Assembly (NCBI GenBank): GCA_035539175.1
Contig: DATLIY010000007.1
Coordinates: 1,245,759-1,309,758 of the forward strand
DNA length: 64,000 bases
Source of the DNA: Acidisarcina sp.
GTDB lineage: Bacteria > Acidobacteriota > Terriglobia > Terriglobales > Acidobacteriaceae
Direction of reading: 5' to 3'
The notes beneath the pieces were generated by a model, which saw nothing but the letters and a program-made list of their open reading frames with translations, was not told where the DNA came from and did not search any database. Of this stretch, positions 16,205 through 64,000 are shown piece after piece (positions within the stretch are counted from its first letter, which is position 1; the number at the start of each line of letters is the position of its first letter). The position numbers were made by a program, and so were the translations under genes.

Positions 16205-16834
16205 CTAGAATCCGCCTTTGCCGATGTCCATGCCCGCTGGTAGAGGATTGCTTTCATCGATGTATCGCTCGATGGACTCCTCTAACTGCCCTTTCGACTT
16301 CAGAATGAATTCGATGGCATCGCGTCCTGCTCCATCGCCGCCGCGATTCTCCGTGACGAAATGGGCTGCGGCTTTAACCTGTTCGCGAGCATTGGCCACG
16401 GCGATTGCCAGTCCGCACTCACGCATCACGGGCAGATCGATCACGTCGTCGCCGACGTAGGCAATCTCCTCTAAAGTCGCGCCTTCCTTGTCGAGGATCT
16501 CGCGGACAGCCCGCATCTTATAGGCCTGGCCCATGTAGACGAACTCCAGCTTGAGATCGCGCGCGCGTAGAGCCACCGTGTCCGAGATGCGCTTGGTAAT
16601 GACTCCGCACTTCATCCCCGCGATGCGGGCGAGCGAGATGGCGGTTCCATCATGCGCGCTGAAACCCTTTGCCTCCACCATGCGGGCGGAGGAGATGTTG
16701 TGACTGTCTTCGCTTGCTGATGGGCTGGCGCCGGAAACGGGGACCATCCAGATGCTGCCGTCGGTGAGAACTCCGTCAACGTCGAAAAGAATGATTTTGA
16801 TGCGCCGGGCGCGGTCTTCCGCAGATATTTGCAT
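16205..16834 (-). CDS. kdsC: KDO 8-phosphate phosphatase KdsC-like HAD hydrolase
   Basis: HAD motif I ILFDVDGVLTDG, motif III/IV YVGDDVIDLPVM and GGDGAGRD. Carries an approximately 18-aa insertion after motif I and a C-terminal extension relative to E. coli KdsC as I remember it. Confidence 0.8.
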   Translation of the reverse strand: MQISAEDRARRIKIILFDVDGVLTDGSIWMVPVSGASPSASEDSHNISSARMVEAKGFSAHDGTAISLARIAGMKCGVITKRISDTVALRARDLKLEFVYMGQAYKMRAVREILDKEGATLEEIAYVGDDVIDLPVMRECGLAIAVANAREQVKAAAHFVTENRGGDGAGRDAIEFILKSKGQLEESIERYIDESNPLPAGMDIGKGGF

Positions 16835-16928
16835 ATTTTCATTTTAACGTGCGGGGCATATCGGTAAGCGTTGCAATGAGATAGGTACGAGGCGAACAGA
16901 AAACGAAGTTCCGCGTTAAAATACCGCA

Positions 16929-19900
16929 ATGCCCTCGCCGGTTCCTTCCCCTTCCGACGACCTTGGCACCCTTGCAGGCGACGACCTGGCATGGGCGCAC
17001 CCCGTTGTGCGCGAGTGGTTTGTGCGGCGCTTCGGCTCTGCCACGGAGCCGCAGCAGCAGGGCTGGCCGCAGATTCTCGCCGGCAAACCGACGCTGATCT
17101 CCGCACCCACCGGCTCAGGCAAAACGCTGGCGGCCTTTCTCATCTGCATTGATGCGCTGCTACGCAAGGCGATGGACGGGCGTCTCGATGCGGAGACGGA
17201 GGTAGTCTACGTTTCACCGCTGAAGGCTCTCTCCAACGACATACAGAAAAATCTGCAGCAGCCACTGGGAGAGATCCAGCAGCTTGCGCTGGAGATGGGC
17301 TGCCTCTGCCCGGAGATTCGCACTGCGGTGCGGACCGGCGATACATCCGCTGCCGAACGGCGCGCAATGTTAAAGCGGCCGCCGCATATCCTGGTCACCA
17401 CTCCGGAGTCGCTCTACATCCTGCTGACAGCAGAGAAATCGCGCCAGAATCTGCGCCGCGTGCGCACGGTGATCGTCGACGAGATTCATGCGCTGGCCGA
17501 CGATAAGCGCGGCACGCATCTGGCGTTGACGCTGGAGCGACTGGATGCGCTGGTGTGCGGAGAGAACACGCTGTCGCCTGGCGCATCGATCACCGGACTT
17601 GCTACGCCGCCTTTGCGCATCGGACTTTCGGCTACGCAGAATCCCATTGAGCTGGTTGCAGAATTCCTCACCGGCAAACCCGCTAACGAAGTTGCCATCG
17701 TGCAGGTAGGGCACAGGCGCACGCTGGACCTTGCGATCGAAGTGCCCGACGACGAGCTGGGTTGCGTTGCCACCAACGCCATCTGGGATTCGATCTACAC
17801 GCGGCTTGCTGAGCTGGCGCAGGAGCATCGCTCGACCCTGGTGTTTGTGAATACGCGACGCATGGTAGAGCGGCTGGCGTTTGCATTGAGCGAGCGAATC
17901 GGCGCGGAGAATGTGGCCGCGCATCACGGCAGTCTGTCGCGCAGGATGCGGCATGAGGCCGAACAAAGGTTGAAGGCCGGAGAGATTCGCCTTCTGGTGG
18001 CGACAGCTTCGCTGGAGCTTGGCATCGACATCGGTAGTATCGATCTCGTATGCCAGATCAACTCGCCGCGCGCGATCGGGGTTGGCGTGCAACGCGTGGG
18101 CCGCGCTGGACACTGGCGGGGAGCCATTCCAAAAGGAAGATTTTTTGTTACCACGCGCGATGATCTGGTGGAGACGGCGGCCCTGTTGCGCGCCATGCAG
18201 AGTGGCGCGCTCGACCGGCTGGAGATTCCCGAGAAGCCTCTCGATGTGCTGATGCAGCAGATTGTGGCGGCATGCGCAGCTGAGCCATGGCATGAGGATG
18301 TCCTGTTCCACGTCCTCCGGCGAGCGTATCCCTATCGCGACCTGACGCGGGACGAGTTTGAAGAATTGCTTTGCCTGCTGGCGGATGGCGTTGAAGTGAC
18401 TCGCGGACGATACGGGGCATACCTGCTCCGCGACCGTGTGCATGGGCATCTGCAGGCGCGGCGAGGTGCGCGAACCGTGGCTGTTTCGAATGGTGGCACG
18501 ATACCGGATACCGCGCTCTTCTCTGTGATTGTGCAGCCTGACGGTGTGCAGATTGCGACTCTCGATGAGGACTTCGCGGTGGAGTCATCAGCGGGCGACA
18601 TTATTCTGCTTGGGAATACGAGCTGGCGGATTCAGCGGGTGGAGAGCGCGGGGCGAGTGTTTGTAGAGGATGCGCACGGGCTGCCGCCGAGTGTTCCTTT
18701 CTGGCGCGGCGAGGCCCCGCAGCGCACGCTGGAGTTGTGTAGCTTTGTTTCGGACCTGCGCGATGAGATTGGATGTCGCGTACCCAATGCGTTGCCGGGC
18801 TACGTAAGCCAGACCCATCCCGAGGTAGCAACGGCCGTGGCGTGGTTAAAGCAGGAGGGCTGTCTGACGGACTCCGGCGCTGAACAGCTGATCGGCTATG
18901 TGATCGCAGGACGAGCTGCGCTGGGCGCGGTGCCAACGCTGAGGACAATCGTCGCCGAGCGCTTTTTCGATGAGGGAGGCGGCATGCAGCTCATCCTGCA
19001 TGCTCCGTTTGGCGGACGCATCAACAAGGCCTGGGGTCTGGCGTTGCGCAAGCGTTTTTGCCGGGGATTCAACTTCGAACTGCAGGCAGCGGCTACCGAC
19101 AACGGGCTGAACATCTCTCTTGCCGAGCAACACAGCTTCCCGCTCAGCGACGTCTTCCAGTTCCTGACAGAAGAGACGGTGACCGAGCTGCTGGAGCAGG
19201 CCTCGTTGGCCTCGCCGATCTTCAAGTCGCGCTGGCGCTGGGATGCGGGTAGGAGTTTGCAACTGTTACGGTTTCACAAAGGCAAGAGGATTCCGCCGCA
19301 GATTCAGCGTACGCGTTCCGAAGATCTGCTGGCGAGCGTCTTCCCCCAGGCCGCAGCATGTTTTGAGAATATCGAGGGAGATATCCAGATTCCGGATCAC
19401 CCTCTCATCCGCGAAGTGATGAAGGATGTGCTGGGCGAAGCCATGGATCTGGATGGCCTTCGGCAGGTCCTGCGAGCTATTCGCGACGGGTCTATTCGCT
19501 GCCTGGCCGTGGATACCACGACCCCATCACAGTTCGCGCACGAGATTCTCCATGCGAATCCTTATGCCTTTCTCGACGATGCGCCGTTGGAGGAGCGCCG
19601 CGCCCGCGCGGTCCATATGCGCGGAACGGTTCCGGACAGCGCGCTGGGAGAGGCCGGAAGACTAGACCCGGCGGCGATTGCCGAGGTACGCGAGGAGATT
19701 CGCCCGGACCTTCGCGATGAACATGAATTTCACGATCTGCTGTGCTCTCTCGTAATTGTTCCCGTGTCTGTTACGGAAGGATCGACTGCGCGGGACTGGA
19801 CGATATTTCTGTCGCGGCTGGAGCGCGTTGGGCGTGCGACCGTGGCAGCGGTGGAAACTCCGACTGGGTTGCGGGAGTATATTGTCGCTGCCGAACGCGT

Positions 19901-26509: not shown

Positions 26510-29500
26510 CTAGAACAGAATTTTTAAACCGAACTGAATCTGCCTTGAAGTTGTCTGCGTCTGATCGACGACGCCAGCTCCATCCGCCGGCGTGCCGTCC
26601 TGATTGAAGATCGTGTAGTTATCAAGCGGCGCTGCAAAGTTGCTCTTATTCAGGATATTGAATGCCTCTACTCTGAACTGCACAGTGGTGCCGCCCAGAC
26701 GCTCGATTTTCGAATTCTTGACGATCGAGAAGTCAAGCTCTGACAGTCCCGGCCCCACCAGTTCATTGCGGCCAGCATTCCCAAGCCGCACGATCTGCTG
26801 CTGCGGCCCACTCGATGTCTGGATAGTTTGCACCGGCGCTGAGAAGCACTGCAACTTGATGTAGTTGTCAGGTTTTCCCGGGTTCACCAGCGAGCCGCAT
26901 CCAGAACTCTTCAGCCTGTCGGGATACGCCCAGGGGTCCGTGCTGTTCATGCCGAGCGGGTCTCCTGCGATAAACACCGAGAACGGGGAGCCGCTGCTTG
27001 CCTGGAAGATGGCACCGGTTTGCCAGCCGTTCGCGGCCCACTTCAGCACAGGAGACTGAACTGTGACCTCAGGTGTATCCCAAAGGATACTGATCACTCC
27101 GTTGTGGCTGAGATTGAAATCCGAAAGACCGCGTCGGGTCTTTGGATCGAACCATAGAGGTACGCTGGATGGTGAATTGGAGAACTGATCGCCGGCGATC
27201 GAAGAGGATCCCGAATCGATGCTCCGGCCCCAGGTGTACGCCCCCGTAAGCTGCAGAGCGTGCCTGATACGGCCCTGGAAGCCTATCTGCAGGCTGTGGT
27301 AGTAGGAGTCGGCATCGTAGGTCGTTCGATTGATATCCCCTACATTCGGGTTCAATACATTTCCATTGAGATACGCATCTCCCGATGGCCACACCCAGCC
27401 ATTGGCCGTGTGTGTCGGCATCACGATGTTTGCGTCGTCTGTGTGATACGGAAGGTGTACGCCGCGCGAGCCGACATATGCCACCGTCACAGTTCTATTT
27501 GCCCCGAGCTCCTGCTGCACGTTCAGATTCCAGTTGTACGTCAGGCTACGCCGCGGGTGCGGATCGAAATAAGAGACGCGCTCTCCGGCCAGCGGGCTTT
27601 GCGCAACGGTGTCCGTGGCCATGCTGTAAGCCTTATTGGGGAAGGTCCCCACGCCAGGATGCACCACTGTAGGATCCACGGTAAACGGTGCGGATCCAGC
27701 CGCACTGATTAGAAAGAGATATGGCAAAGGCAGGACATCGTAGATGCCCATTCCACCTCGCACCGCGGTCTTGCCGTTGCCCACTGGGTCCCAGGCAAAG
27801 CCGACACGCGGGGAGAAATCCTTCAACGTCGGATTCGAGAAGTATGGATCGCCGATATGCACGTTGGCATCCGTCATCTGTCGCAGCGTGGAAAGGCGGT
27901 TGTGCACCTCGGTAGGTACGGTTGTGACCTCATAGCGAAGTCCGTAGTTGATGGTGAGGTTGTGACGCGCGCGCCAGCTATCCTGGGCATAGCCACCGGC
28001 CAATGTCTCGCGGATACCGCGCTCCGATTCTCCGCTCGGCAGTTGCACCCCATAGACCAGCGGATTATTTTTAAGGAAATCTGAAAAGCTCCCAAAGACG
28101 AAGCGCCCATTCTGGGTAAAGCGCATGTAGTTATTGGACTGCATGCGCTCGACGGCCAGACCGAACTTAAAGCTATGCGCGCCATGCGTGATAAATGCGT
28201 CGTCATAGAACTGGAAGGAATTCCAGCCAATGACAAAATTCGGGAAGCCTCCGACACCGCCGAAGAACACGGTCCACCCTGGCACGATGAGGAAGGGCGC
28301 AGGCCTGCCGGGTACCGATGCCAGCGCAGGATCGCCTGCCAGCGGGTTGATAGGATTCGCGGTGTTGGAAATCGCATGATTCCTGCTGAACCCGAAGCGT
28401 ACGGTATTGATCACATTTGGGTTGAAGATATGCGTCTCTTCAAGGCTGACAAATGTGCGTGCATCCTTATTGACGAAGTGCAGATTATTCAGGGAATCAG
28501 GTTGATTCAGGTCCGTAGAGTCGTATTGAAAAGAGCCACTCAGCGAGTCGTTTAGCGAGAGATGATGATCGACTTTGGCGGTGTAAAAGTTCTCGTTGCC
28601 GATCTGGCTGGTGGCGACGCGGTAATATCCAATGTCTCCCGTGGAATCCAGACCAGCATTAGGCAGAGGCCAGAATGCAAGATACGGCTTCACCGCGGAA
28701 TCCACCGTCACGTTGCCGCCGTTCGCATTAGAGATGATGCCGTTTCGCGCGTTCTGCGACGGCACTCGATCCACCTGCGAGACTCCCAGCGATTGCCGCA
28801 ACCCTTCATAGTTCGCGAAGAAAAATGTCTTGTCGCGAAGCACCGGGCCGCCGATAGATCCGCCGAACTGATTGCGGCGGAAGGGTGCGATGGTAGGGCC
28901 ATCGAAGTAGTTCCGCGCGTCTAAAGCACTGTTCCGAAGAAAGTCGTAGGCACTGCCGTGAAACGCATTGGTGCCGGAACGCGTGATCGCGTTGACTACG
29001 CCACCAGAGGTCTTGCCGTACTCCGCAGAATAGTTCGTGGTGATGACGGAAAACTCCTGAACCGCATCGACGCCAGTAATGGTGCCCAGGACACCACCGG
29101 GCGCTCCATTGGTGTAGTCGTTGAAGCTGACGCCATCAAGACGATAGTTGTTCTGCTGCGGTCGTGTACCGGCGATGCTCATCTGGCTTCCGAAGCCCCG
29201 GAGTACGCGATTGACATCCGACGTTCCAGCGCTGCCGATCGCCGACTGGTTCCGTACCTGGTCGGCGCCTGGCTGCAACGTAATCAACTGCGACCAGTCA
29301 CGTCCATTCAAAGGAAGCTCGCGAACCGTCTCGCTATCCACTACCTCGCTAATGCTGGAGCTCGTCAGATCCGTGGTTGCACTTACGTCCTGCACTTCGA
29401 TCTGCTGCGTCGAAGCTCCAACCTTCAGACTCAGATTCACCGTCAAACTGGCACCAACGGTCAGCGTGATTCCGTTCGCCACTTCCTTCGCAAATCCAGC

Positions 29501-57358: not shown

Positions 57359-58291
57359 TTACCGCTTACTCCGAACTTTGCCCGTCACACGCGGTACGAG
57401 TTCGGGCGAAGAAGACAGGATAAAGCGGCGAAACGCTCCTGCATTGCCTATAGGCACTGGGCCGGCAGGATAGGCTAGCGAGAACATGCGGGACAATTGA
57501 ATCCCATGTACGCGCGCCAGCCGAAGCGTGCCTAAAGCGAGCTGGTTGCGTACTGCCCAGCGAGATACGAACGTTACGCCAAGCCCAGCCTCGACGGCGC
57601 TGAGCAGACCTTCCGTCGAGTCGAGTTCCATGATGGTTCTAAGTTCCTTCTTCCGGAGTCCGGCTTTTGCCAATGCCGCCTCAATCACGCGACGCGATCC
57701 CGAACCGAACTCCCGCATGAGCAAGGGCGCGCCTTTCAGCGCATCGATCTGGATTGTGTGCTCGGCCCATTCATGGCTGGCGGGTACAACCAGCACGATC
57801 TGGTCTTCCATAAAAGGTTCGATGTGAATATCCTTGCGTAACGCGGGACCCTCGATCATCGCCAATTGAATGCGGCGTGCAACCAGGGCGTCCAGCATTT
57901 CGTCTGTATTCCCGCTCACCGCAGAGATTGCGACACGCGGATGCTCGCGAAGAAATGCCGCAACGAGATTCGGCAAGACGTATTGTCCGATGGTTTGCGA
58001 TGCCCCGAGAGCTAACTTCCCAGCATGATTCCCGGCCGCACTGGTCACGGCTTCGTATGCTTCGTTCGAGATTGTTTTTAGATGCTCCGCATAAGGCTGC
58101 AGGCGCTCGCCAGCGGGTGTGAGCGTGATGCGCCCACCACTGCGATCGAACAGAGGTACGCCGAATTCGTCTTCGAGAGCTTTGATCTGCTGGGTAACGG
58201 CAGGTTGTGTCAAAAGTAGTTCTTCAGCAGCTCGACTGAAGTTGAGATGTCGCGCAACTGCCCGAAAAACTGTGATCCGGAAATTTTCCAT
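57359..58291 (-). CDS. LysR-family transcriptional regulator
   Basis: Start at Met27. MENFRITVFRAVARHLNFSRAAEELLLTQPAVTQQIKALEDEFGVPLFDR is a canonical LysR HTH. Divergent from the yeiH-like gene, as with the E. coli yeiE/yeiH pair. Confidence 0.85.
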   Translation of the reverse strand: MENFRITVFRAVARHLNFSRAAEELLLTQPAVTQQIKALEDEFGVPLFDRSGGRITLTPAGERLQPYAEHLKTISNEAYEAVTSAAGNHAGKLALGASQTIGQYVLPNLVAAFLREHPRVAISAVSGNTDEMLDALVARRIQLAMIEGPALRKDIHIEPFMEDQIVLVVPASHEWAEHTIQIDALKGAPLLMREFGSGSRRVIEAALAKAGLRKKELRTIMELDSTEGLLSAVEAGLGVTFVSRWAVRNQLALGTLRLARVHGIQLSRMFSLAYPAGPVPIGNAGAFRRFILSSSPELVPRVTGKVRSKR

Positions 58292-58453
58292 CTTCGCTCC
58301 AACCTTAGCCTCATGATTGTCGCAGAATATCCGGGCCGAAGCTGCACGCTTTAGCCACTGCAGCCGCAACTATAAGAAAGACGAATCCTCTATAAGAATT
58401 TCCGCTTGGACTGCGCCTGTCCTTCGCAAAGATACTGGCCGCAGGAGTGAGGA

Positions 58454-59377
58454 TTGAATCCGAAGACAGTCTTTTTTATTGGAATCATTTTGACCGCAAG
58501 CGGCATGATCTCTCCATCGATTGCCCTGCTGGCAGGCATCGTATATGGCTTTGCTTTCGCTCATCCCTATCACCTGGAGAGCAGAAACCTCTCCCGCTTT
58601 CTTTTGCAGGCGGCTGTCGTCGGACTTGGCTTCGGGATGAACCTGCATCAAGTAGTACGCGTCGGCAAAGCAGGAGTTCTTTACACTGCGATCAGCATCT
58701 CCGCCGCCATGCTGCTTGGCTGGCTTCTGGGACGAGTGTTGCATGTTAGCCGAAAAGCAGCATTTCTGATCACGGTGGGAACCGCTATTTGCGGAGGAAG
58801 CGCAATTGCCGCGATTGCGCCCATCACCAATCCGGATGAGGAAGAGATGGCGATGTCACTCGGCACCGTATTCATCCTGAACGCAGTGGCATTACTGCTC
58901 TTCCCCATGATTGGCCTTGCATTGCACATGAGCCAGGTCCAGTTCGGACTCTGGTCTGCGTTAGCCATTCACGACACAAGTTCTGTCGTGGGTGCCGCCG
59001 CCAGGTACGGACCACAAGCATTGCAGATCGGAACAACTGTCAAGCTGGCAAGAGCTCTTTGGATTGTTCCATTGGCCATGCTCACCGCATTCGCGAGGAA
59101 GAGCAACGCACGGATTCGGTGGCCCTGGTTTATTCTGCTTTTCTGTCTCGCTGCCGTGGCTAACACATACCTTCCGGAGGCGGACAGGCTCTACCTAATC
59201 CTCAATCGCCTTGGGGGTCGTGGATTGACGGTCGTTCTTTTCCTGATTGGAACCGGACTATCGAAAGATACTCTCCGCCGTGTTGGCATCCGGCCATTTC
59301 TGCAAGGTATTGGCCTGTGGGCAATCATTGCGATCGCATCACTGCTTGCGATTCGTGCCGGATGGATCACTCTATAA
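58454..59377 (+). CDS. yeiH: YeiH/UPF0324-family membrane protein (putative sulfate-exporter family)
   Basis: TTG start 6 nt after AGGAG. 307-aa polytopic protein with TVGTAICGGSAIAA and TVKLARALWIVP blocks, typical of UPF0324. Confidence 0.75.
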   Translation: MNPKTVFFIGIILTASGMISPSIALLAGIVYGFAFAHPYHLESRNLSRFLLQAAVVGLGFGMNLHQVVRVGKAGVLYTAISISAAMLLGWLLGRVLHVSRKAAFLITVGTAICGGSAIAAIAPITNPDEEEMAMSLGTVFILNAVALLLFPMIGLALHMSQVQFGLWSALAIHDTSSVVGAAARYGPQALQIGTTVKLARALWIVPLAMLTAFARKSNARIRWPWFILLFCLAAVANTYLPEADRLYLILNRLGGRGLTVVLFLIGTGLSKDTLRRVGIRPFLQGIGLWAIIAIASLLAIRAGWITL

Positions 59378-59601
59378 ACGACACAAATGATGTTTCTTTG
59401 TTCACGGCTACGTCTGGAGCGAAAGAAAATACCTGCTGTACATAAGGCCTATACCTCCATTGCGACGATGGAGACATGGATGACGGCATTTGACTGCGTC
59501 CTCAACGCAAGGCGGAGTGTGGCAGGATTCGTACAGATGGCGTCCCGCCGATTCGACTGCCTCTCTTTATGAGCAGGAATCCGAAGAGTGAGGAATTCTA
59601 A

Positions 59602-60302
59602 ATGTTCGTTGGCCACTACGGACCAAGCTTTGCCGGCAAGGCACTCAAACAAGCAATTCCTCTGTGGGTACTGTTTGTCGCGGTGCAATTTCTGGACGTC
59701 CTCGGTCAATCTTTGTACTTCTCGGTATTGAAAAGGTTCGTATCGTGCCGGGAATCACCAAGTCGAGTCCGCTGGATCTTTACTACATGCCGTATACCCA
59801 CAGCCTGGACGGAGCTATTCTTTGGTCGCTGGCTGCGGGAATTGTATATTGGTTGTTCCGCAGGACAGATGGTTGGCGTGCCGCTGCCGTCGTATCAGCC
59901 GCTGTCTTCTCTCACTGGGTCCTTGATTTGCTTGTTCACCGACCTGACCTCCCGATATACAACAACAGCCTGAAACTTGGTCTTGGCCTCTGGAATCACC
60001 CGGTAGCGGCATTGGCACTTGAATTTGCGGTCCTGTTCGGTGGCATGTACCTCTACTTGCGCACGACGGAAGCCATTACCCGAGGCGGCCGTTACGGGAT
60101 GGTCGTCTTTGGGCTAGCGATGGCTTGCCTTCATGTTGCTGTATTTTTCGGCCCTCCCCCAAGCTCAGATCGAGCCGCGGCCATTATGGCGCTCGCAGGC
60201 TACGCCGTCTTTGCCGCAGCTGCGTACTGGCTTGAGAGGATGCGCGCTCCCAGGACAGCGCCGAGATCCATGCGAACACACTCCGCAATACCTGCAAGGT
60301 GA
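59602..60302 (+). pseudogene. membrane-bound metal-dependent-hydrolase-like protein, disrupted by a 1-nt frameshift near 59703/59704
   Basis: ORF 59602..59973 encodes MFVGHYGPSFAGKALKQAIPLWVLFVAVQFLDVL, then nonsense. ORF 59664..60302, in another frame, continues SIFVLLGIEKVRIVPG...YYMPYTHSLDGAILWS...FSHWVLDLLVHRPD. Inserting one T (ctc-Tgg-tca) restores ...FLDVLWSIFVLLGIEK... as a single approximately 233-aa protein. Confidence 0.6.
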
Positions 60303-60428
60303 AATCTTAAGAATTCTGGTATTGGGCAAGGGTGAAACTGGGTCGCGGGTACAGAACGGACCCCCAATGGAAATACGAAAGCGGGCTTTGTGCCTGCCGG
60401 TAAGCTATTTATTTTCTTTGATTTATTT

Positions 60429-60475
60429 TGGTGGACCTGGTCGGGATCGAACCGACGACCTCTTCCATGCCATGG
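60429..60475 (-). other. 3' fragment (anticodon loop to CCA) of a tRNA-Ala(GGC)-like gene; putative att repeat
   Basis: The minus strand reads CC-ATGGCAT-GGAAG-AGGTC-GTCGG-TTCGATC-CCGAC-CAGGTCC-A-CCA. The T arm, acceptor 3' strand and CCA are perfect, but no matching 5' acceptor strand (GGACCTG), D arm or 5' anticodon-stem strand lies upstream. Coordinates cross-checked against the ORF 60133..60603 translation. Confidence 0.7.
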
Positions 60476-60596
60476 TGAGCATTGGGCCGCAAGTTATAGA
60501 CGGTACAGCACTTACTAACCGGTATAACCGGCAAAAACGGCACAATTGGCACTATTTGCTGCCAAAATGCTGCCAAATTTTGCCCAGCGGGCCAAT

Positions 60597-60619
60597 GGGC
60601 TGACTGTGTGGGTCAGCCC
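60597..60619 (-). terminator. hairpin just downstream of the DUF3883-like gene
   Basis: GGGCTGAC-tgtgtgg-GTCAGCCC, 8 nt after the stop at 60628. The T-run lies on the plus-strand side only, so its function is uncertain. Confidence 0.4.
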
Positions 60620-60627
60620 GATTTTCT

Positions 60628-61464
60628 TCAGTCGGATAAACGTCGTAGGGTGATCTTAGTGGTCTGCCATTCGCCAGAAGCTTGATCTTGCGGAATGTGC
60701 ATTCTCAGCTCGTCTGGTGTGATCTCAATCAGTTCCTCCTCCGGCAAAAGCCAGATATGGAAAAAATAGTGCGGTACGCGCTCGATGGCAGTATTCCATT
60801 CATTGCGTGTCAGAAATATCTCGCGTGAGTCGCGTGCTGAGGACTTGACCTCAATAAGCTTGGCGATAGGCTCCACGACGCCGATGTCGTAGGACTGCAC
60901 ATCGTAGCCAGCGGAGTTATCATCAAGTGCGACCCAGCGCACAGTATTGGTTATCCCCAAACCCGAGAGTCGCCGATTTTCGTAGTCGATGGTGAGCTGC
61001 TCCGCCCGACGTCCTTGCTGCTGCTTTCTGTCATCGTCTGCCCGGCGCGCTTTGCGTGAGAGTTCGTCCCACCATTCCCTTATGACAGTGGAAGGGGTTC
61101 TGGCAAATAATCCAGCAGCCTCAAAACATTGTTCTTCGTTGGTACTCAAAGCAGTCCGAATACGCTCCCGCCCCCACGGGGAGAGCCTTACCCACCAGGG
61201 TCGTGCTTCCTCGATAAAACTCCAGATGGCATCTCGGAAGAGAGCTGTCGCGTCTTGAAGATGCTCATCCCGTGCGCTCGTCAAGCCACTCAACACCACG
61301 GCCATTTCATAGTCGTGATAGGCATCATCGGGAGAGATGCGCTTTAGCGTGGAAATAATCTCCGTGAGCGGTACCTGACTGTGGAGTGCAGCATACCGGC
61401 GGATAGCGAGCAGCCCATTGAGCGCGCTCATCGACAGTATGCGTTCTCGTTCGAGAACTGACAC
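60628..61464 (-). CDS. two-domain protein: unknown helical N-domain + DUF3883-like PD-(D/E)xK nuclease C-domain
   Basis: The C-terminal 120 aa read GRRAEQLTIDYENRRL...WVALDDNSAGYDVQSYD...LIEVKSS...FLTRNEWNTA...YFFHIW, which is the DUF3883 pattern (GYD ... IEVK ... NE ... Y.F..V). Starts 5 nt after the SNF2 gene stop. Confidence 0.7.
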   Translation of the reverse strand: MSVLERERILSMSALNGLLAIRRYAALHSQVPLTEIISTLKRISPDDAYHDYEMAVVLSGLTSARDEHLQDATALFRDAIWSFIEEARPWWVRLSPWGRERIRTALSTNEEQCFEAAGLFARTPSTVIREWWDELSRKARRADDDRKQQQGRRAEQLTIDYENRRLSGLGITNTVRWVALDDNSAGYDVQSYDIGVVEPIAKLIEVKSSARDSREIFLTRNEWNTAIERVPHYFFHIWLLPEEELIEITPDELRMHIPQDQASGEWQTTKITLRRLSD

Positions 61465-61469
61465 AGCTA

Positions 61470-63371
61470 TTATTCCTCCACACCGCTGTCAGGTGAGAAT
61501 TCCTTGCCCTCTAGCTCCTCAATGAGATCAATGAGATCGGCCAACTCAATCCCATAATCCGTTGGATCCGCCGCATTCTCTTCATCGAGCGCGATTTCAT
61601 GGAGGTCTGGATCATCAAGTAACTGCTGCAAGCCGCGGAGTTTAACTGCCAATCGTCGGTTGACCGAGCGGTCAATGCTACCGATCCCCTGTGGAGCTAC
61701 CGATTGAAAGATGTGAATATTCGTTTCGGTTCCTGGTGCTAGACCAAGGCGGTGAATACGATCTATGGATTGCAGATAATGCGTGGTGTTGTAGCTACGG
61801 TCGAGATAGATCGCCTCATGGCAGACTTCATGCAGGCTGATACCTTCGCCAGCAGCGGCAGGATTGGCGATCATCACTGAGCAGGCGGAATCTTCGTGAA
61901 AGCGCCGGATACGACTTTCACGTGTGTCAGCGCCTTCCTGTTCGCCGGTAGGAATGGCACCGTAAAGCGTCACTGGATTTAACTCTGAAAGCAGCCGTTC
62001 CATTTCGAGGATTGTATTGGTAAAGATCGTCCAGATAACGCATTTACGGTTATTGCGCGCCAATTGGCGTGCCAGCGCCGCTACCGCCTGCATCTTTTGC
62101 GATGGGCCTTCTTCCATCACCTTGTCGATAATCCCCGAACCTATCGAAGAAATATCGGAGAATTCTGCCATTGATCGCAAAGCCGCAATAGGGTTGACCG
62201 ATAGTTGCAGAAGCGTCATCACGGAGCGTCGCGCACCATAAATATCCACGCGCCGGTCGTGCTTAAGAGAGCTGAGCTGCTTCAATGCTTCGCTGCGGAC
62301 AATGGAGTAAAGTGCAAGTTGGCTGGGACTCATCTCGACATGCTTGAATTCACGATGTGGCTTCGGAAGACCAAGCTCACTCTTGGTTGTTCTCACATAA
62401 AGATTGCCCAGTACCTGCCTGGGTGCGGTCCCCTGAGCTATCCTTCCACCCAGCCCTGCACCTGGCCAGAGGAAGTCCAACTGAGATTGCAAATCCGATG
62501 GGGATTGAGGCATCGGAGTTCCACTCAGAATATCCCGCCGTATCGGCAAAGTGCAGATGCCAAGCAATACAGATCCCCGCTGAGACGAATAGCCTGCTTT
62601 CATGCGGTGCGATTCGTCAAGCACCAAATGAACGGGATGGCGTGCGAGATAGGTCGCAATAACGCTCGGAATCCGAATTAGCTGGTCATAGGTAATCAAA
62701 AAACGTGTCGCACCAGAATCCAATGTGCGAATGATCGCGTCCTCACCACCCGTCAAGGTCGTGAACGGCTCCGCGCTACCGTCTGTTGCACCTTCATCAA
62801 TGCAGTCGCGGACGGCGTCCTGCCAAGCCATAAATGCGTTTTTAGGAGCAACAACGAGCAGGTGTTGTCCCGGTTTCCGGGTAAGGATATCTAACGCAAG
62901 CGTAACGGTCGTCTTGCCAGATCCGGGTACTGAGAAATTCGCGCCGTTGGCGACTGAGAGCAGGTACCCGATATCTCGATTTTGGAATGGCTTGAGGGCG
63001 CGTTTAGTGAAGGAGAGGGCGCGTAGGCGGGTGTCGATCTCATCTCCGCCGAGCGTCGCGGTCAACGTGCCGCGTGCTTCTCTTACTGCCTTGTAGTTCC
63101 GTACAAACTCATTGATCTTCTCTTTCGCGAGCCCGATGGGCCGTAAGACGAACCCTTGTTGGCGCTGAAGCGGAGCAAACTCACGCACGAGCGAAAGCGC
63201 CGTTACCCAGGGCACATTCAATTTATTCAAGGCCAGCTCGTAATCATTCTCGATAGCCATCGCACGCTGAACGACGCGCTCCCAAATGGCATCTTCGCTT
63301 ACGGCCTTCAGTTCGAAACTACCTCGCAGGGTCGAAGCACTGTACGTGATTTCGATCTCAGCCATAGCCAA
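61470..63371 (-). CDS. SNF2/Rad54-family helicase-like ATPase
   Basis: Walker A SVPGSGKTT, motif II HLVLDESHRMK, motif III LSGTPMPQSPSDL, helicase-C lobe VMIANPAAAGEGISL and motif VI YLQSIDRIHRLG. The N-terminal approximately 125 aa and the acidic C-tail are unassigned. Confidence 0.8.
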   Translation of the reverse strand: MAMAEIEITYSASTLRGSFELKAVSEDAIWERVVQRAMAIENDYELALNKLNVPWVTALSLVREFAPLQRQQGFVLRPIGLAKEKINEFVRNYKAVREARGTLTATLGGDEIDTRLRALSFTKRALKPFQNRDIGYLLSVANGANFSVPGSGKTTVTLALDILTRKPGQHLLVVAPKNAFMAWQDAVRDCIDEGATDGSAEPFTTLTGGEDAIIRTLDSGATRFLITYDQLIRIPSVIATYLARHPVHLVLDESHRMKAGYSSQRGSVLLGICTLPIRRDILSGTPMPQSPSDLQSQLDFLWPGAGLGGRIAQGTAPRQVLGNLYVRTTKSELGLPKPHREFKHVEMSPSQLALYSIVRSEALKQLSSLKHDRRVDIYGARRSVMTLLQLSVNPIAALRSMAEFSDISSIGSGIIDKVMEEGPSQKMQAVAALARQLARNNRKCVIWTIFTNTILEMERLLSELNPVTLYGAIPTGEQEGADTRESRIRRFHEDSACSVMIANPAAAGEGISLHEVCHEAIYLDRSYNTTHYLQSIDRIHRLGLAPGTETNIHIFQSVAPQGIGSIDRSVNRRLAVKLRGLQQLLDDPDLHEIALDEENAADPTDYGIELADLIDLIEELEGKEFSPDSGVEE

Positions 63372-63386: not shown

Positions 63387-64000
63387 TTACGCCGTCGGAT
63401 TCGCTTTAGCTGGGTCAGGCAACTCACTCTTTAGTTTTTGCGCTCGTGCTATCACGCTATCGAGCTGCGCGGCAATGGCGGCATGGGTGGACGGGTCTGC
63501 TGTGGAAATGTCGATCTCAAGTAGCTTGGTATTGGCATCGCGCGCTGCTTTAAGAGCGGCCTGACCGCGTTTCTCGTCCTGTTCGGCTGAGCGGATGCTC
63601 TCGCAAACTGAGATTAGTTCCGACGCGGTCTCGTCCCGGCGGGACGGATCGTCGAACACCTCTATAAGAGGTTTGTAGCTTGTGCCTTCGTTCTCTTCAT
63701 CGAGATCGATGTCCAGCGAACCAGTATCTTCCTGCTTGTCGGTCGGTGGTGCTGTCATGTCAACACCGAGCCGCGCGGCAAGTGCCTCCGCTACATCCCC
63801 TGATTTCTTGCCGAAGCTGAAATTGAACGCATACGCGCGAACCCCTAGTGATTTAGAGTTGTCCTGGATCGTAAAAGCGATGCGACGGCTCAGTTCGAGC
63901 TCCTCACCGGTCTTATCTTTCAGAAGCCGAGCCATATCTCCGAAAAGTTGCTGGGCTCCGCTTTCAACCTGCTGGTAATCTTCCGGTGTGCGCTTCCAAT
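63387..64000 (-). CDS. hypothetical protein, C-terminal part only (frame open to the window edge)
   Basis: The listed ORF starts at Met 63935, but the frame upstream (WKRTPEDYQQVESGAQQLFGD-M...) has no stop up to nt 64000. Contains an acidic linker (DIDLDEENEG) and a coiled-coil-like tail. The stop lies 15 nt before the SNF2 gene start. Confidence 0.6.
   Translation of the reverse strand, partial: WKRTPEDYQQVESGAQQLFGDMARLLKDKTGEELELSRRIAFTIQDNSKSLGVRAYAFNFSFGKKSGDVAEALAARLGVDMTAPPTDKQEDTGSLDIDLDEENEGTSYKPLIEVFDDPSRRDETASELISVCESIRSAEQDEKRGQAALKAARDANTKLLEIDISTADPSTHAAIAAQLDSVIARAQKLKSELPDPAKANPTA

What the first reader, a model, noticed from the sequence alone, without database searches (positions are those of the whole stretch)
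60429..60475. Orphan 47-nt 3' end of a tRNA-Ala(GGC)-like gene coinciding with a GC drop: probable att repeat and island junction
Seen: read on the minus strand, the stretch gives the anticodon loop (A-U-GGC-A-U), the 3' anticodon-stem strand GGAAG, the variable loop AGGTC, a perfect T arm GTCGG/TTCGATC/CCGAC, the acceptor 3' strand CAGGTCC, discriminator A and CCA. The next approximately 35 nt on the 5' side (…GCGGCCCAATGCTCACC) contain neither the complementary anticodon-stem strand (CTTCC needed, TCACC present), nor a D arm, nor GGACCTG. It therefore cannot fold into a full tRNA. Lines I counted to the right of this point are about 48-53% GC, against about 60% or more in the core. Established knowledge: tyrosine-recombinase islands and prophages insert into tRNA 3' portions, often at the anticodon loop, and leave a partial direct repeat at the distal end. 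Inference: the island lies to the right, on the fragment's 5' side. An intact tRNA-Ala plus an integrase should sit at its far end, outside this window.
Basis: partly seen in the sequence, partly recalled or inferred. Interest (0 to 1): 0.6.

Follow-up and report, generated by a model that had tools for sequence, protein, structure and literature searches.

The report
attR end of an acidobacterial ICE

Summary
The 47-nt fragment (window 60429-60475, minus strand) is real. No tRNA finder or covariance model calls a tRNA there. It matches 46 of 48 nt of the 3' part of the genome's single intact tRNA-Ala(GGC) gene, which lies on another contig (C10 28541-28616).

Beside that gene, on its 3' side, sit a 437-aa tyrosine integrase and an HTH_17 excisionase-like gene.

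The DNA between the two repeats is an integrative conjugative element (ICE), at least 41.7 kb. It carries a VirB-type type IV secretion system, a coupling protein, a TrwC relaxase, RepB primase, ParB and ArdC. Its cargo includes restriction-modification, AbiE and a ubiquitin-like E1/E2/JAB set.

The element crosses an assembly gap inside virB10. Its N-terminal part ends the window's contig and its last 53 codons open C10. A single-contig relative has the same gene order from fragment to tRNA.

Both arms carry the same tandem motif, TTGGCAGCA x2. This motif changes in concert in related elements, so these are likely integrase arm sites. In five other genomes, homology to the island-side arm stops exactly after CCACCAA.

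The GC drop is weak and begins about 2.4 kb before the fragment. No empty site was found. Verdict: a known kind, a new member, low interest.

The parts
60429..60475 (-). Displaced 3' fragment of tRNA-Ala(GGC), tRNA positions 30-76. This is the core of attR. The identity block with the intact gene runs one base further, to 60428.
   Evidence: ARAGORN and Rfam find no tRNA here.
60476..60632 (-). P arm of the element (the island-side arm of attR). It is conserved non-coding DNA that starts at the stop codon of the last cargo gene.
   Evidence: It is 75-96% identical to attR arms in genomes G171, G172, G173 (two copies), G175 and G177. Homology ends right after CCACCAA and the flanks beyond are unrelated. 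It is also similar to the G010 element.
60557..60576 (-). Tandem motif TTGGCAGCA-TT-TTGGCAGCA, a candidate pair of integrase arm-type binding sites.
   Evidence: The 18-mer GGCAGCATTTTGGCAGCA occurs only twice in the 3.9-Mb genome: here, and between the integrase stop and the intact tRNA at C10 28483. In 60 related loci the pair at the same position changes in concert. The same concerted change is seen in attR arms.
60628..61464 (-). Cargo gene: 278-aa protein with a NOV_C/DUF3883 domain. It is the last gene of the element.
   Evidence: Pfam PF13020, E 4e-13; PADLOC PDC-S36, PD-T4-1 and TmtA C-terminal regions.
61470..63371 (-). Cargo gene: 633-aa SNF2-family helicase.
   Evidence: Pfam SNF2-rel_dom and Helicase_C; weak ZorD and DrmD matches in PADLOC.
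63387..64000 (-). C-terminal part of a 439-aa cargo protein with no family match. The gene runs on to C7 1310464. A BglII-like endonuclease and a type II methyltransferase follow outside the window.
59664..60302 (+). First gene outside the element on the chromosomal side, a YdjM-like membrane protein. It marks the flank and is not part of the element.
   Evidence: Weak Pfam YdjM match. No homology to any attR flank in other genomes.

Best explanation
The fragment is the attR core of an integrative conjugative element of about 42 kb. The element entered the chromosome by tyrosine-integrase recombination between its attP and the single tRNA-Ala(GGC) gene.

**How the scar arose.** attP carries a copy of tRNA positions about 30-76. 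After integration the gene is therefore restored at one end (attL: 5' part from the chromosome, 3' part from the element). The original 3' part is pushed about 42 kb away, and that displaced piece is the fragment in the window.

**Order of the element**, reading from the fragment on the plus strand:
- P arm with two arm-type sites;
- defence cargo: NOV_C protein, SNF2 helicase, an unknown 439-aa protein, a BglII-like endonuclease, a type II methylase, and AbiEi/AbiEii;
- VirB4, VirB9, VirB10 (assembly gap of about 0.65 kb here), VirB6, VirB8, VirB11;
- RepB primase, a NikA-like protein, the TrwB-type coupling protein and the TrwC relaxase;
- a JAB/E1/E2 set, ArdC and ParB;
- small-molecule cargo: SnoaL x2, MFS, SDR, TetR, LysR;
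- an HTH_17 excisionase-like gene, the integrase, the P' arm with the same two arm-type sites, and intact tRNA-Ala.

**What is shown:** the repeat, the integrase, the gene content, conservation of both arms, and the exact end of homology.

**What is inferred:**
- the contig join;
- a crossover in the anticodon-loop region, inferred from where the identity block begins;
- integrase binding to the TTGGCAGCA pairs;
- that the element can still excise and transfer.
For: **Repeat and intact gene**
- The 48-nt direct repeat has 2 compensatory mismatches. Its second copy is the 3' part of the only tRNA-Ala(GGC) gene.

**Recombination genes**
- The integrase matches PF00589 at 1.3e-15. It converges on the tRNA's 3' end and stops 63 nt from it.
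- It has R217, a Lys in the GKTKG stretch at 251-255 that aligns beside XerD's GKGNK, Q333-x-x-R336, H358 and Y368. The Q is conserved in 79 of 80 relatives.
- An HTH_17 gene lies just upstream of the integrase.

**Conjugation set**
- A full conjugation set is present: VirB4, B6, B8, B9, B10, B11, coupling protein and TrwC.

**Contig join**
- Both contig ends are dead ends in the assembly.
- The virB10 homologue of G010 aligns at residues 41-200 to the C7 end (74%) and residues 416-468 to the C10 start (94%), in the same orientation.
- G177 carries a related element on a single contig. It has the same order from fragment to tRNA, including the same P arm.

**Arm sites**
- The 18-mer containing the arm motif is found only at the two ends of the element.
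- Of 80 related integrase loci, 53 have tRNA-Ala(GGC) and 7 have tRNA-Val(GAC) in the same geometry. Each has a motif pair at about +36 to +60 whose two copies change together.

**Boundaries**
- Homology of attR arms in five other genomes ends right after CCACCAA.
- The tRNA's 5' flank (a 250-aa protein, sigma factor, anti-sigma factor and a 637-aa protein) is syntenic across the genus, whereas the 3' side differs in every genome.

**General rule**
- Islands in tRNA genes are bounded by the regenerated gene and its displaced fragment (PMC4383910, abstract).
Against: - No read-level proof joins C7's right end to C10's left end.
- No empty site was found in any relative or metagenome.
- The composition is only about 1 sd below the genome mean, and the left flank is equally low.
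- The T-stem polymorphism does not settle which repeat copy came from the element. The closest integrase relatives (96% identical) sit next to a GTC-type tRNA, whereas here the tRNA is ATC-type.
- Excision and transfer are untested.
Confidence: 0.92

Rival explanations
1. There are two separate events. The fragment and the 13 kb to its right are a relic of an older element whose integrase end is lost or lies elsewhere. The integrase-bearing DNA next to tRNA-Ala on C10 would then be a different element, and the two contigs are not adjacent.
For: The ends lie on different contigs with no overlap. Tandem arrays of islands at tRNA-Ala do exist in relatives, for example G173 and G177.
Against: - The two halves of one virB10 gene sit at the two contig ends in matching orientation.
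- Neither part alone has a full conjugation set, but together they have exactly one.
- G177 shows the same order on one contig.
- The identical 18-mer arm motif occurs only at these two places.
- No third tRNA-Ala fragment exists on C7 or C10, allowing up to 5 mismatches in 25 nt.
Confidence: 0.05
2. The fragment is a decayed tRNA pseudogene left by a local duplication or deletion and is unrelated to site-specific recombination.
For: It lacks the 5' half and no program calls it a tRNA.
Against: - It is uninterrupted to CCA.
- Its 5' boundary is the same position (tRNA position 28-30) as in fragments of other genomes.
- The DNA on its 5' side is a conserved element arm, and homology stops exactly at the fragment's 3' end.
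Confidence: 0.02
3. The element is an immobile remnant. The att sites and genes are present, but it no longer excises or transfers.
For: - The state of virB10 is unknown because of the gap.
- A related element in G177 shows many broken frames.
- Activity was not tested.
Against: - Every other backbone gene is an intact open frame.
- The integrase keeps its catalytic residues.
- The attL and attR cores differ at only 2 of 48 nt.
- A 96%-identical integrase with a near-identical arm occurs in other genomes, which suggests recent spread.
Confidence: 0.25

Closest known systems
Genomic islands and ICEs integrated into tRNA genes by tyrosine integrases, as catalogued by Islander (PMC4383910). From my own knowledge, examples are ICEclc in tRNA-Gly and ICEMlSymR7A in tRNA-Phe.
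   Same: An intact regenerated tRNA gene with an adjacent integrase at one end. A displaced 3' fragment in the same orientation at the other end. A conjugation module and accessory cargo in between.
   Different: The host is an Acidobacteriaceae bacterium and the target is tRNA-Ala(GGC). The integrase matches no named subfamily and has Q in place of the first His of HxxR. Mobility is untested.
Lambda-type attP architecture with arm-type integrase sites. This rests on my own knowledge of lambda Int P1/P2/P'1-3 and Tn916 Int.
   Same: Short direct-repeat motifs lie in both arms, away from the core: about 80-100 nt on the P side and about 40-60 nt on the P' side. They are separate from the crossover region and co-vary with the integrase lineage.
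   Different: Only two adjacent copies per arm were seen. Binding, bending factors and the role of the HTH_17 protein are all untested.
VirB/Trw-type (MPF-T class) conjugation systems with a MOB-F relaxase (TrwC), as surveyed in PMC3158045 and PMC3548315.
   Same: VirB4, B6, B8, B9, B10, B11, a TrwB-type coupling protein and a TrwC relaxase-helicase are present.
   Different: The system is integrated rather than plasmid-borne. The small pilus genes (VirB2, B3, B5) were not identified here.
ICEs reported in Acidobacteria (Goncalves and Santana 2021, Gene 777:145476). I know this paper only as reference 16 of PMC9373382 and did not read it.
   Same: Same phylum and same kind of element.
   Different: I could not check whether this family or this tRNA-Ala site is described there.

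Membership tests
Functional tRNA gene | A complete cloverleaf recognised by a tRNA finder or covariance model. | tested here: not met
   ARAGORN finds 0 genes in the window. Rfam gives no tRNA match at E<=10. The 5' half is absent.
tRNA-gene-integrated genomic island (Islander-type) | An intact target tRNA gene plus a displaced 3' fragment of it in the same orientation. | tested here: met
   C10 c[28541-28616] and C7 c[1306187-1306233] match at 46 of 48 nt.
tRNA-gene-integrated genomic island (Islander-type) | A tyrosine integrase gene inside the island, next to the intact tRNA. | tested here: met
   PF00589 at 1.3e-15. The gene ends 63 nt from the tRNA 3' end, and the catalytic residues are present.
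tRNA-gene-integrated genomic island (Islander-type) | Both ends lie on one continuous DNA molecule. | tested here: inconclusive
   The ends are on two contigs. The join is inferred from the split virB10 and the single-contig relative in G177.
Integrative conjugative element | Relaxase, coupling protein, VirB4-type ATPase and mating-pore genes within the att-bounded segment. | tested here: met
   TrwC 1.3e-89, TrwB 7e-75, VirB4/TraG P-loop, CagX/VirB9, VirB8, VirB6/TrbL and VirB11; VirB10 by homology.
Integrative conjugative element | Excision to a circular form and transfer by conjugation. | not testable with these tools
   This needs PCR for attP and attB, or mating assays. No reads were available.
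Lambda-type attP with arm-type sites | The same short motif is repeated in both arms, outside the core. | tested here: met
   TTGGCAGCA x2 lies at +38/+49 of P' and at about -101/-90 of P. The 18-mer is unique to these two places in the genome.
Lambda-type attP with arm-type sites | The motif co-varies with the integrase lineage. | tested here: met
   The pairs TTGGCAGCA, TTGGTAGCA, TTGTCGCA, TTGGTGTCA and TTGCCCGCA each change in both copies, in P' arms and in P arms.
Lambda-type attP with arm-type sites | The integrase N-terminal domain binds the motif. | not testable with these tools
   This needs a gel-shift or footprinting experiment.

The most novel reading that the evidence does not exclude
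This integrase family is widespread in Acidobacteriaceae and has a QxxR active site. Its elements may offer a natural read-out of arm-site specificity. Both copies of the arm motif, in both arms, switch together between at least five variants. One sub-branch has moved from tRNA-Ala(GGC) to tRNA-Val(GAC). The conjugation backbone also occurs in both orientations relative to the integrase. If the motifs really are integrase arm sites, the family could serve as a comparative system for how tyrosine integrases re-target and re-code their arm recognition.
Probability: 0.45. Interest if true: 0.35.

Novelty: new member of a known kind. Interest (0 to 1): 0.22.

Why it matters
The result fixes both boundaries of a roughly 42-kb mobile element in an acidobacterial genome. 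The defence genes at the right end of the window are therefore mobile cargo rather than core genes. It also links two contigs of the assembly, C7's right end to C10's left end. In addition, tRNA-Ala(GGC) emerges as a recurrent integration hot spot across Acidobacteriaceae. The mechanism itself is textbook, so the value lies in annotation and context, not discovery.

Tried and rejected
- **Empty-site search.**
  - A joined-flank DNA query against 40 relatives found the tRNA and its 5' flank but never the 3' flank.
  - Protein synteny in four same-genus genomes showed different DNA 3' of tRNA-Ala in each.
  - The YeiH-like flank gene is never next to a tRNA-Ala in the 29 best-matching loci fetched from other genomes of the family.
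  - An exact scan of metagenome contigs for the fragment-flank junction gave 0 hits.
- **GC break as a boundary marker.** Rejected, because the left flank is as low in GC as the adjacent cargo.
- **T-stem A-T versus G-C pair as a marker of the crossover side.** Inconclusive, because int-adjacent tRNAs of the closest relatives carry either type.
- **The 117-aa frame upstream of the integrase.** Rejected as spurious. It is Arg/Gly-rich and its length is not preserved in relatives. The overlapping 83-aa HTH_17 frame is preferred.
- **Contig C2 (1.5 kb) as filler of the gap.** No similarity to virB10 and no family match.
- **A second, older fragment further left.** None on C7 or C10 at up to 5 mismatches in 25 nt.

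Full report
**Observation.** On the minus strand, window 60429-60475 reads CCATGGCATGGAAGAGGTCGTCGGTTCGATCCCGACCAGGTCCACCA. This is a tRNA from the last two bases of the 5' anticodon-stem strand through the loop AUGGCAU, the 3' stem strand, the variable loop, a perfect T arm, the acceptor 3' strand, the discriminator A and CCA. Nothing upstream can supply a D arm or the acceptor 5' strand.

ARAGORN finds no tRNA in the whole window. Rfam at E<=10 over 58-64 kb gives no tRNA match. The last 22 nt with up to 3 mismatches occur once, against 0 expected from shuffles.

**The second copy.** The window is C7:1245759-1309758 of a 13-contig, 3.92-Mb genome. The genome has one tRNA-Ala(GGC) gene, at C10 c[28541-28616]. 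The fragment matches its positions 30-76, plus one base after CCA, at 46 of 48 nt. The two differences are a compensatory T-stem pair: G49-C65 in the fragment and A49-T65 in the gene. Both copies are on the minus strand of their contigs.

**Recombination genes.** A 437-aa tyrosine recombinase (PF00589, 1.3e-15) lies at C10 27164-28477. It converges on the tRNA's 3' end. Aligned to XerD, it has R217, a Lys in its GKTKG stretch (251-255) opposite XerD's GKGNK, Q333-x-x-R336, H358 and Y368. The Gln in place of the first His is a family trait, present in 79 of 80 relatives.

The longest frame just upstream (117 aa) looks spurious. An overlapping 83-aa frame at C10 26865-27116 matches HTH_17, the excisionase-type helix-turn-helix, at 30.9 bits against a cutoff of 27.

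**What lies between the repeats.**

To the right of the fragment on C7:
- a NOV_C/DUF3883 protein and an SNF2 helicase;
- a 439-aa protein of unknown family;
- a BglII-like endonuclease with a type II methylase;
- AbiEi/AbiEii;
- VirB4, VirB9 and an open frame that runs off the contig.

C10 1-28540 holds:
- VirB6/TrbL, VirB8 and VirB11;
- RepB primase and a NikA-like protein;
- a TrwB-type coupling protein and a TrwC relaxase;
- a JAB/ThiF-E1/E2 set, ArdC and ParB;
- two SnoaL proteins, an MFS transporter, an SDR, TetR and LysR;
- the recombination genes.

Together this is one complete integrative conjugative element.

**Joining the contigs.** C7's right end and C10's left end are dead ends with no overlap to any other contig. 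A relative from another genus, G010, carries a homologous element next to its tRNA-Ala(GGC). Its VirB10-like protein aligns at residues 41-200 to the last 480 nt of C7 (74% identity). Residues 416-468 align to nt 2-160 of C10 (94% identity). Both alignments are on the plus strand. About 215 codons (about 0.65 kb) are missing from the assembly.

Genome G177 has a related element on one contig. It has the same order as inferred here:
- fragment and P arm;
- cargo;
- the 202-aa protein, VirB4, B9, B10;
- the 158-aa protein (reverse strand), B6, B8, B11;
- RepB, NikA, coupling protein, TrwC;
- ArdC and ParB;
- LysR (reverse strand), the small gene, integrase and tRNA-Ala.

The element is therefore 41,657 bp plus the gap.

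**The arms.** Forty to sixty nt beyond the intact tRNA, the sequence reads TTGGCAGCATTTTGGCAGCAAAT. The same sequence lies 80-100 nt on the island side of the fragment, at window 60557-60576. The 18-mer core occurs nowhere else in the genome.

Among 80 loci with related integrases (59-96% identity, nearly all titled Acidobacteriaceae, Terracidiphilus, Granulicella and similar), 53 have tRNA-Ala(GGC) and 7 have tRNA-Val(GAC) in the same convergent position. Every one of these 60 shows a motif pair at the same distance. The two copies always change together: TTGGCAGCA, TTGGTAGCA, TTGTCGCA, TTGGTGTCA or TTGCCCGCA. G010 shows the TTGGTAGCA variant in both of its arms.

This concerted change is what is expected of protein-binding sites that co-evolve with their protein. 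I read them as integrase arm-type sites. Binding itself is an inference.

**The exact boundary.** The 157 nt on the island side of the fragment (window 60476-60632) begin at the stop codon of the last cargo gene. They are 75-96% identical to the corresponding DNA in G171, G172, G173 (two copies), G175 and G177. In the four ungapped matches the similarity stops at CCACCA+A, and in the other two a few AT-rich bases later. After that point the sequences are unrelated. This places the element's end at the 3' end of the fragment.

On the other side, the tRNA's 5' flank (a 250-aa protein, an ECF-type sigma factor, an anti-sigma factor and a 637-aa protein) is syntenic in same-genus genomes and in G010. 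The 3' side differs in every genome.

**Crossover position.** The identity block starts at tRNA position 30 here and at position 28 in G010 and G011. In the published scheme for tRNA-targeting integrases, which I cite from my own knowledge of Williams 2002, a block starting in the anticodon stem points to strand exchange in the anticodon loop.

I tried to use the T-stem polymorphism to confirm this. In G000, G004 and G010 the int-adjacent gene is A-T type while the fragment is G-C or C-G type. However, the closest integrase relatives sit beside G-C type genes, so the test is not decisive.

**Composition.** The element is 55.9% GC against 58.35% for the genome, where the sd of 5-kb windows is 2.4 points. 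Its conjugation genes are at the genome level (58%) and its cargo is at 53-54%. The 2.5 kb of chromosome to the left of the fragment is 53.5%. The claimed GC drop is therefore real as a regional trend, but it does not mark the junction.

**Empty site.** None was found. Same-genus genomes have other DNA after tRNA-Ala. In G003 that DNA leads within 16 kb to orthologues of window 16214-19160. This gives coarse support that C7 and the C10 tRNA flank are neighbours. The flank's YeiH-like gene is never next to a tRNA-Ala in the 29 best-matching loci from other genomes of the family. An exact scan of metagenome contigs gave nothing.

**Comparison with the known.** This is the standard picture of an island in a tRNA gene, bounded by the regenerated gene and its displaced fragment (PMC4383910). 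It carries a VirB/TrwC-type conjugation system (PMC3158045, PMC3548315). ICEs in Acidobacteria have been reported (Goncalves and Santana 2021, seen only as a citation in PMC9373382).

**Verdict.** This is a new member of a known kind, of low interest apart from the tidy arm-site covariation.

Noticed in passing
G000 C7:~718,200-752,906 (outside the window): The same genome holds a second, related conjugative element next to tRNA-Asn(GTT) at c[752832-752906]. It has its own integrase (30% identical) and a collinear backbone of VirB4, B9, B10, B6, B8, B11, RepB, coupling protein, TrwC, ArdC and ParB (63-83% identical proteins). Its backbone runs in the opposite orientation relative to the integrase, as it does in G010.
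   Followed up: partly
G000 C10:13807-16486 (inside the element, outside the window): A JAB-domain protein (306 aa), a ThiF-type E1 (314 aa), a 78-aa open frame and an E2-like protein (124 aa) lie in a row. This resembles the bacterial ubiquitin-like conjugation defence sets (Bil or 6A-type). I did not test it against PADLOC.
   Followed up: no
window 60380-60428 and 57359-60302: The DNA just 3' of the fragment (AAATAAATAGCTTACCGG) resembles the start of the integrase-side arm of a different element in G027 (AAATCAATAGCTTACGAG). The left flank is low in GC (53.5%), has no synteny in relatives, and holds a possibly frameshifted YdjM-like gene. The flank may be the remnant of an older island, but no further tRNA-Ala fragment was found.
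   Followed up: partly
relatives G004, G006, G010, G011, G023, G173, G177: Many Acidobacteriaceae genomes have tRNA-Ala(GGC) plus one or more same-orientation 3' fragments 2 to 74 kb away. Some are in tandem arrays: G177 has fragments at 56.6 kb and about 86 kb. This tRNA gene is a recurrent integration hot spot.
   Followed up: partly
loci L047, L050, L051, L052, L057, L058, L059: Seven integrases of the same family (66-73% identical) sit beside tRNA-Val(GAC) instead of tRNA-Ala(GGC). They have the same arm-motif pairs, which indicates a target switch within the family.
   Followed up: no
G000 contig ends: C13 (149 kb) begins and ends with the same sequence in inverted orientation. C1's right end, C12's right end and both ends of C2 are further dead ends of the assembly.
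   Followed up: no
window 60604-60626 (minus strand): A hairpin, GGGCTGA-CCCACAC-AGTCAGCCC, lies right after the NOV_C gene stop. It is conserved in all six related attR arms. It could be a terminator or a site for a host bending factor.
   Followed up: no
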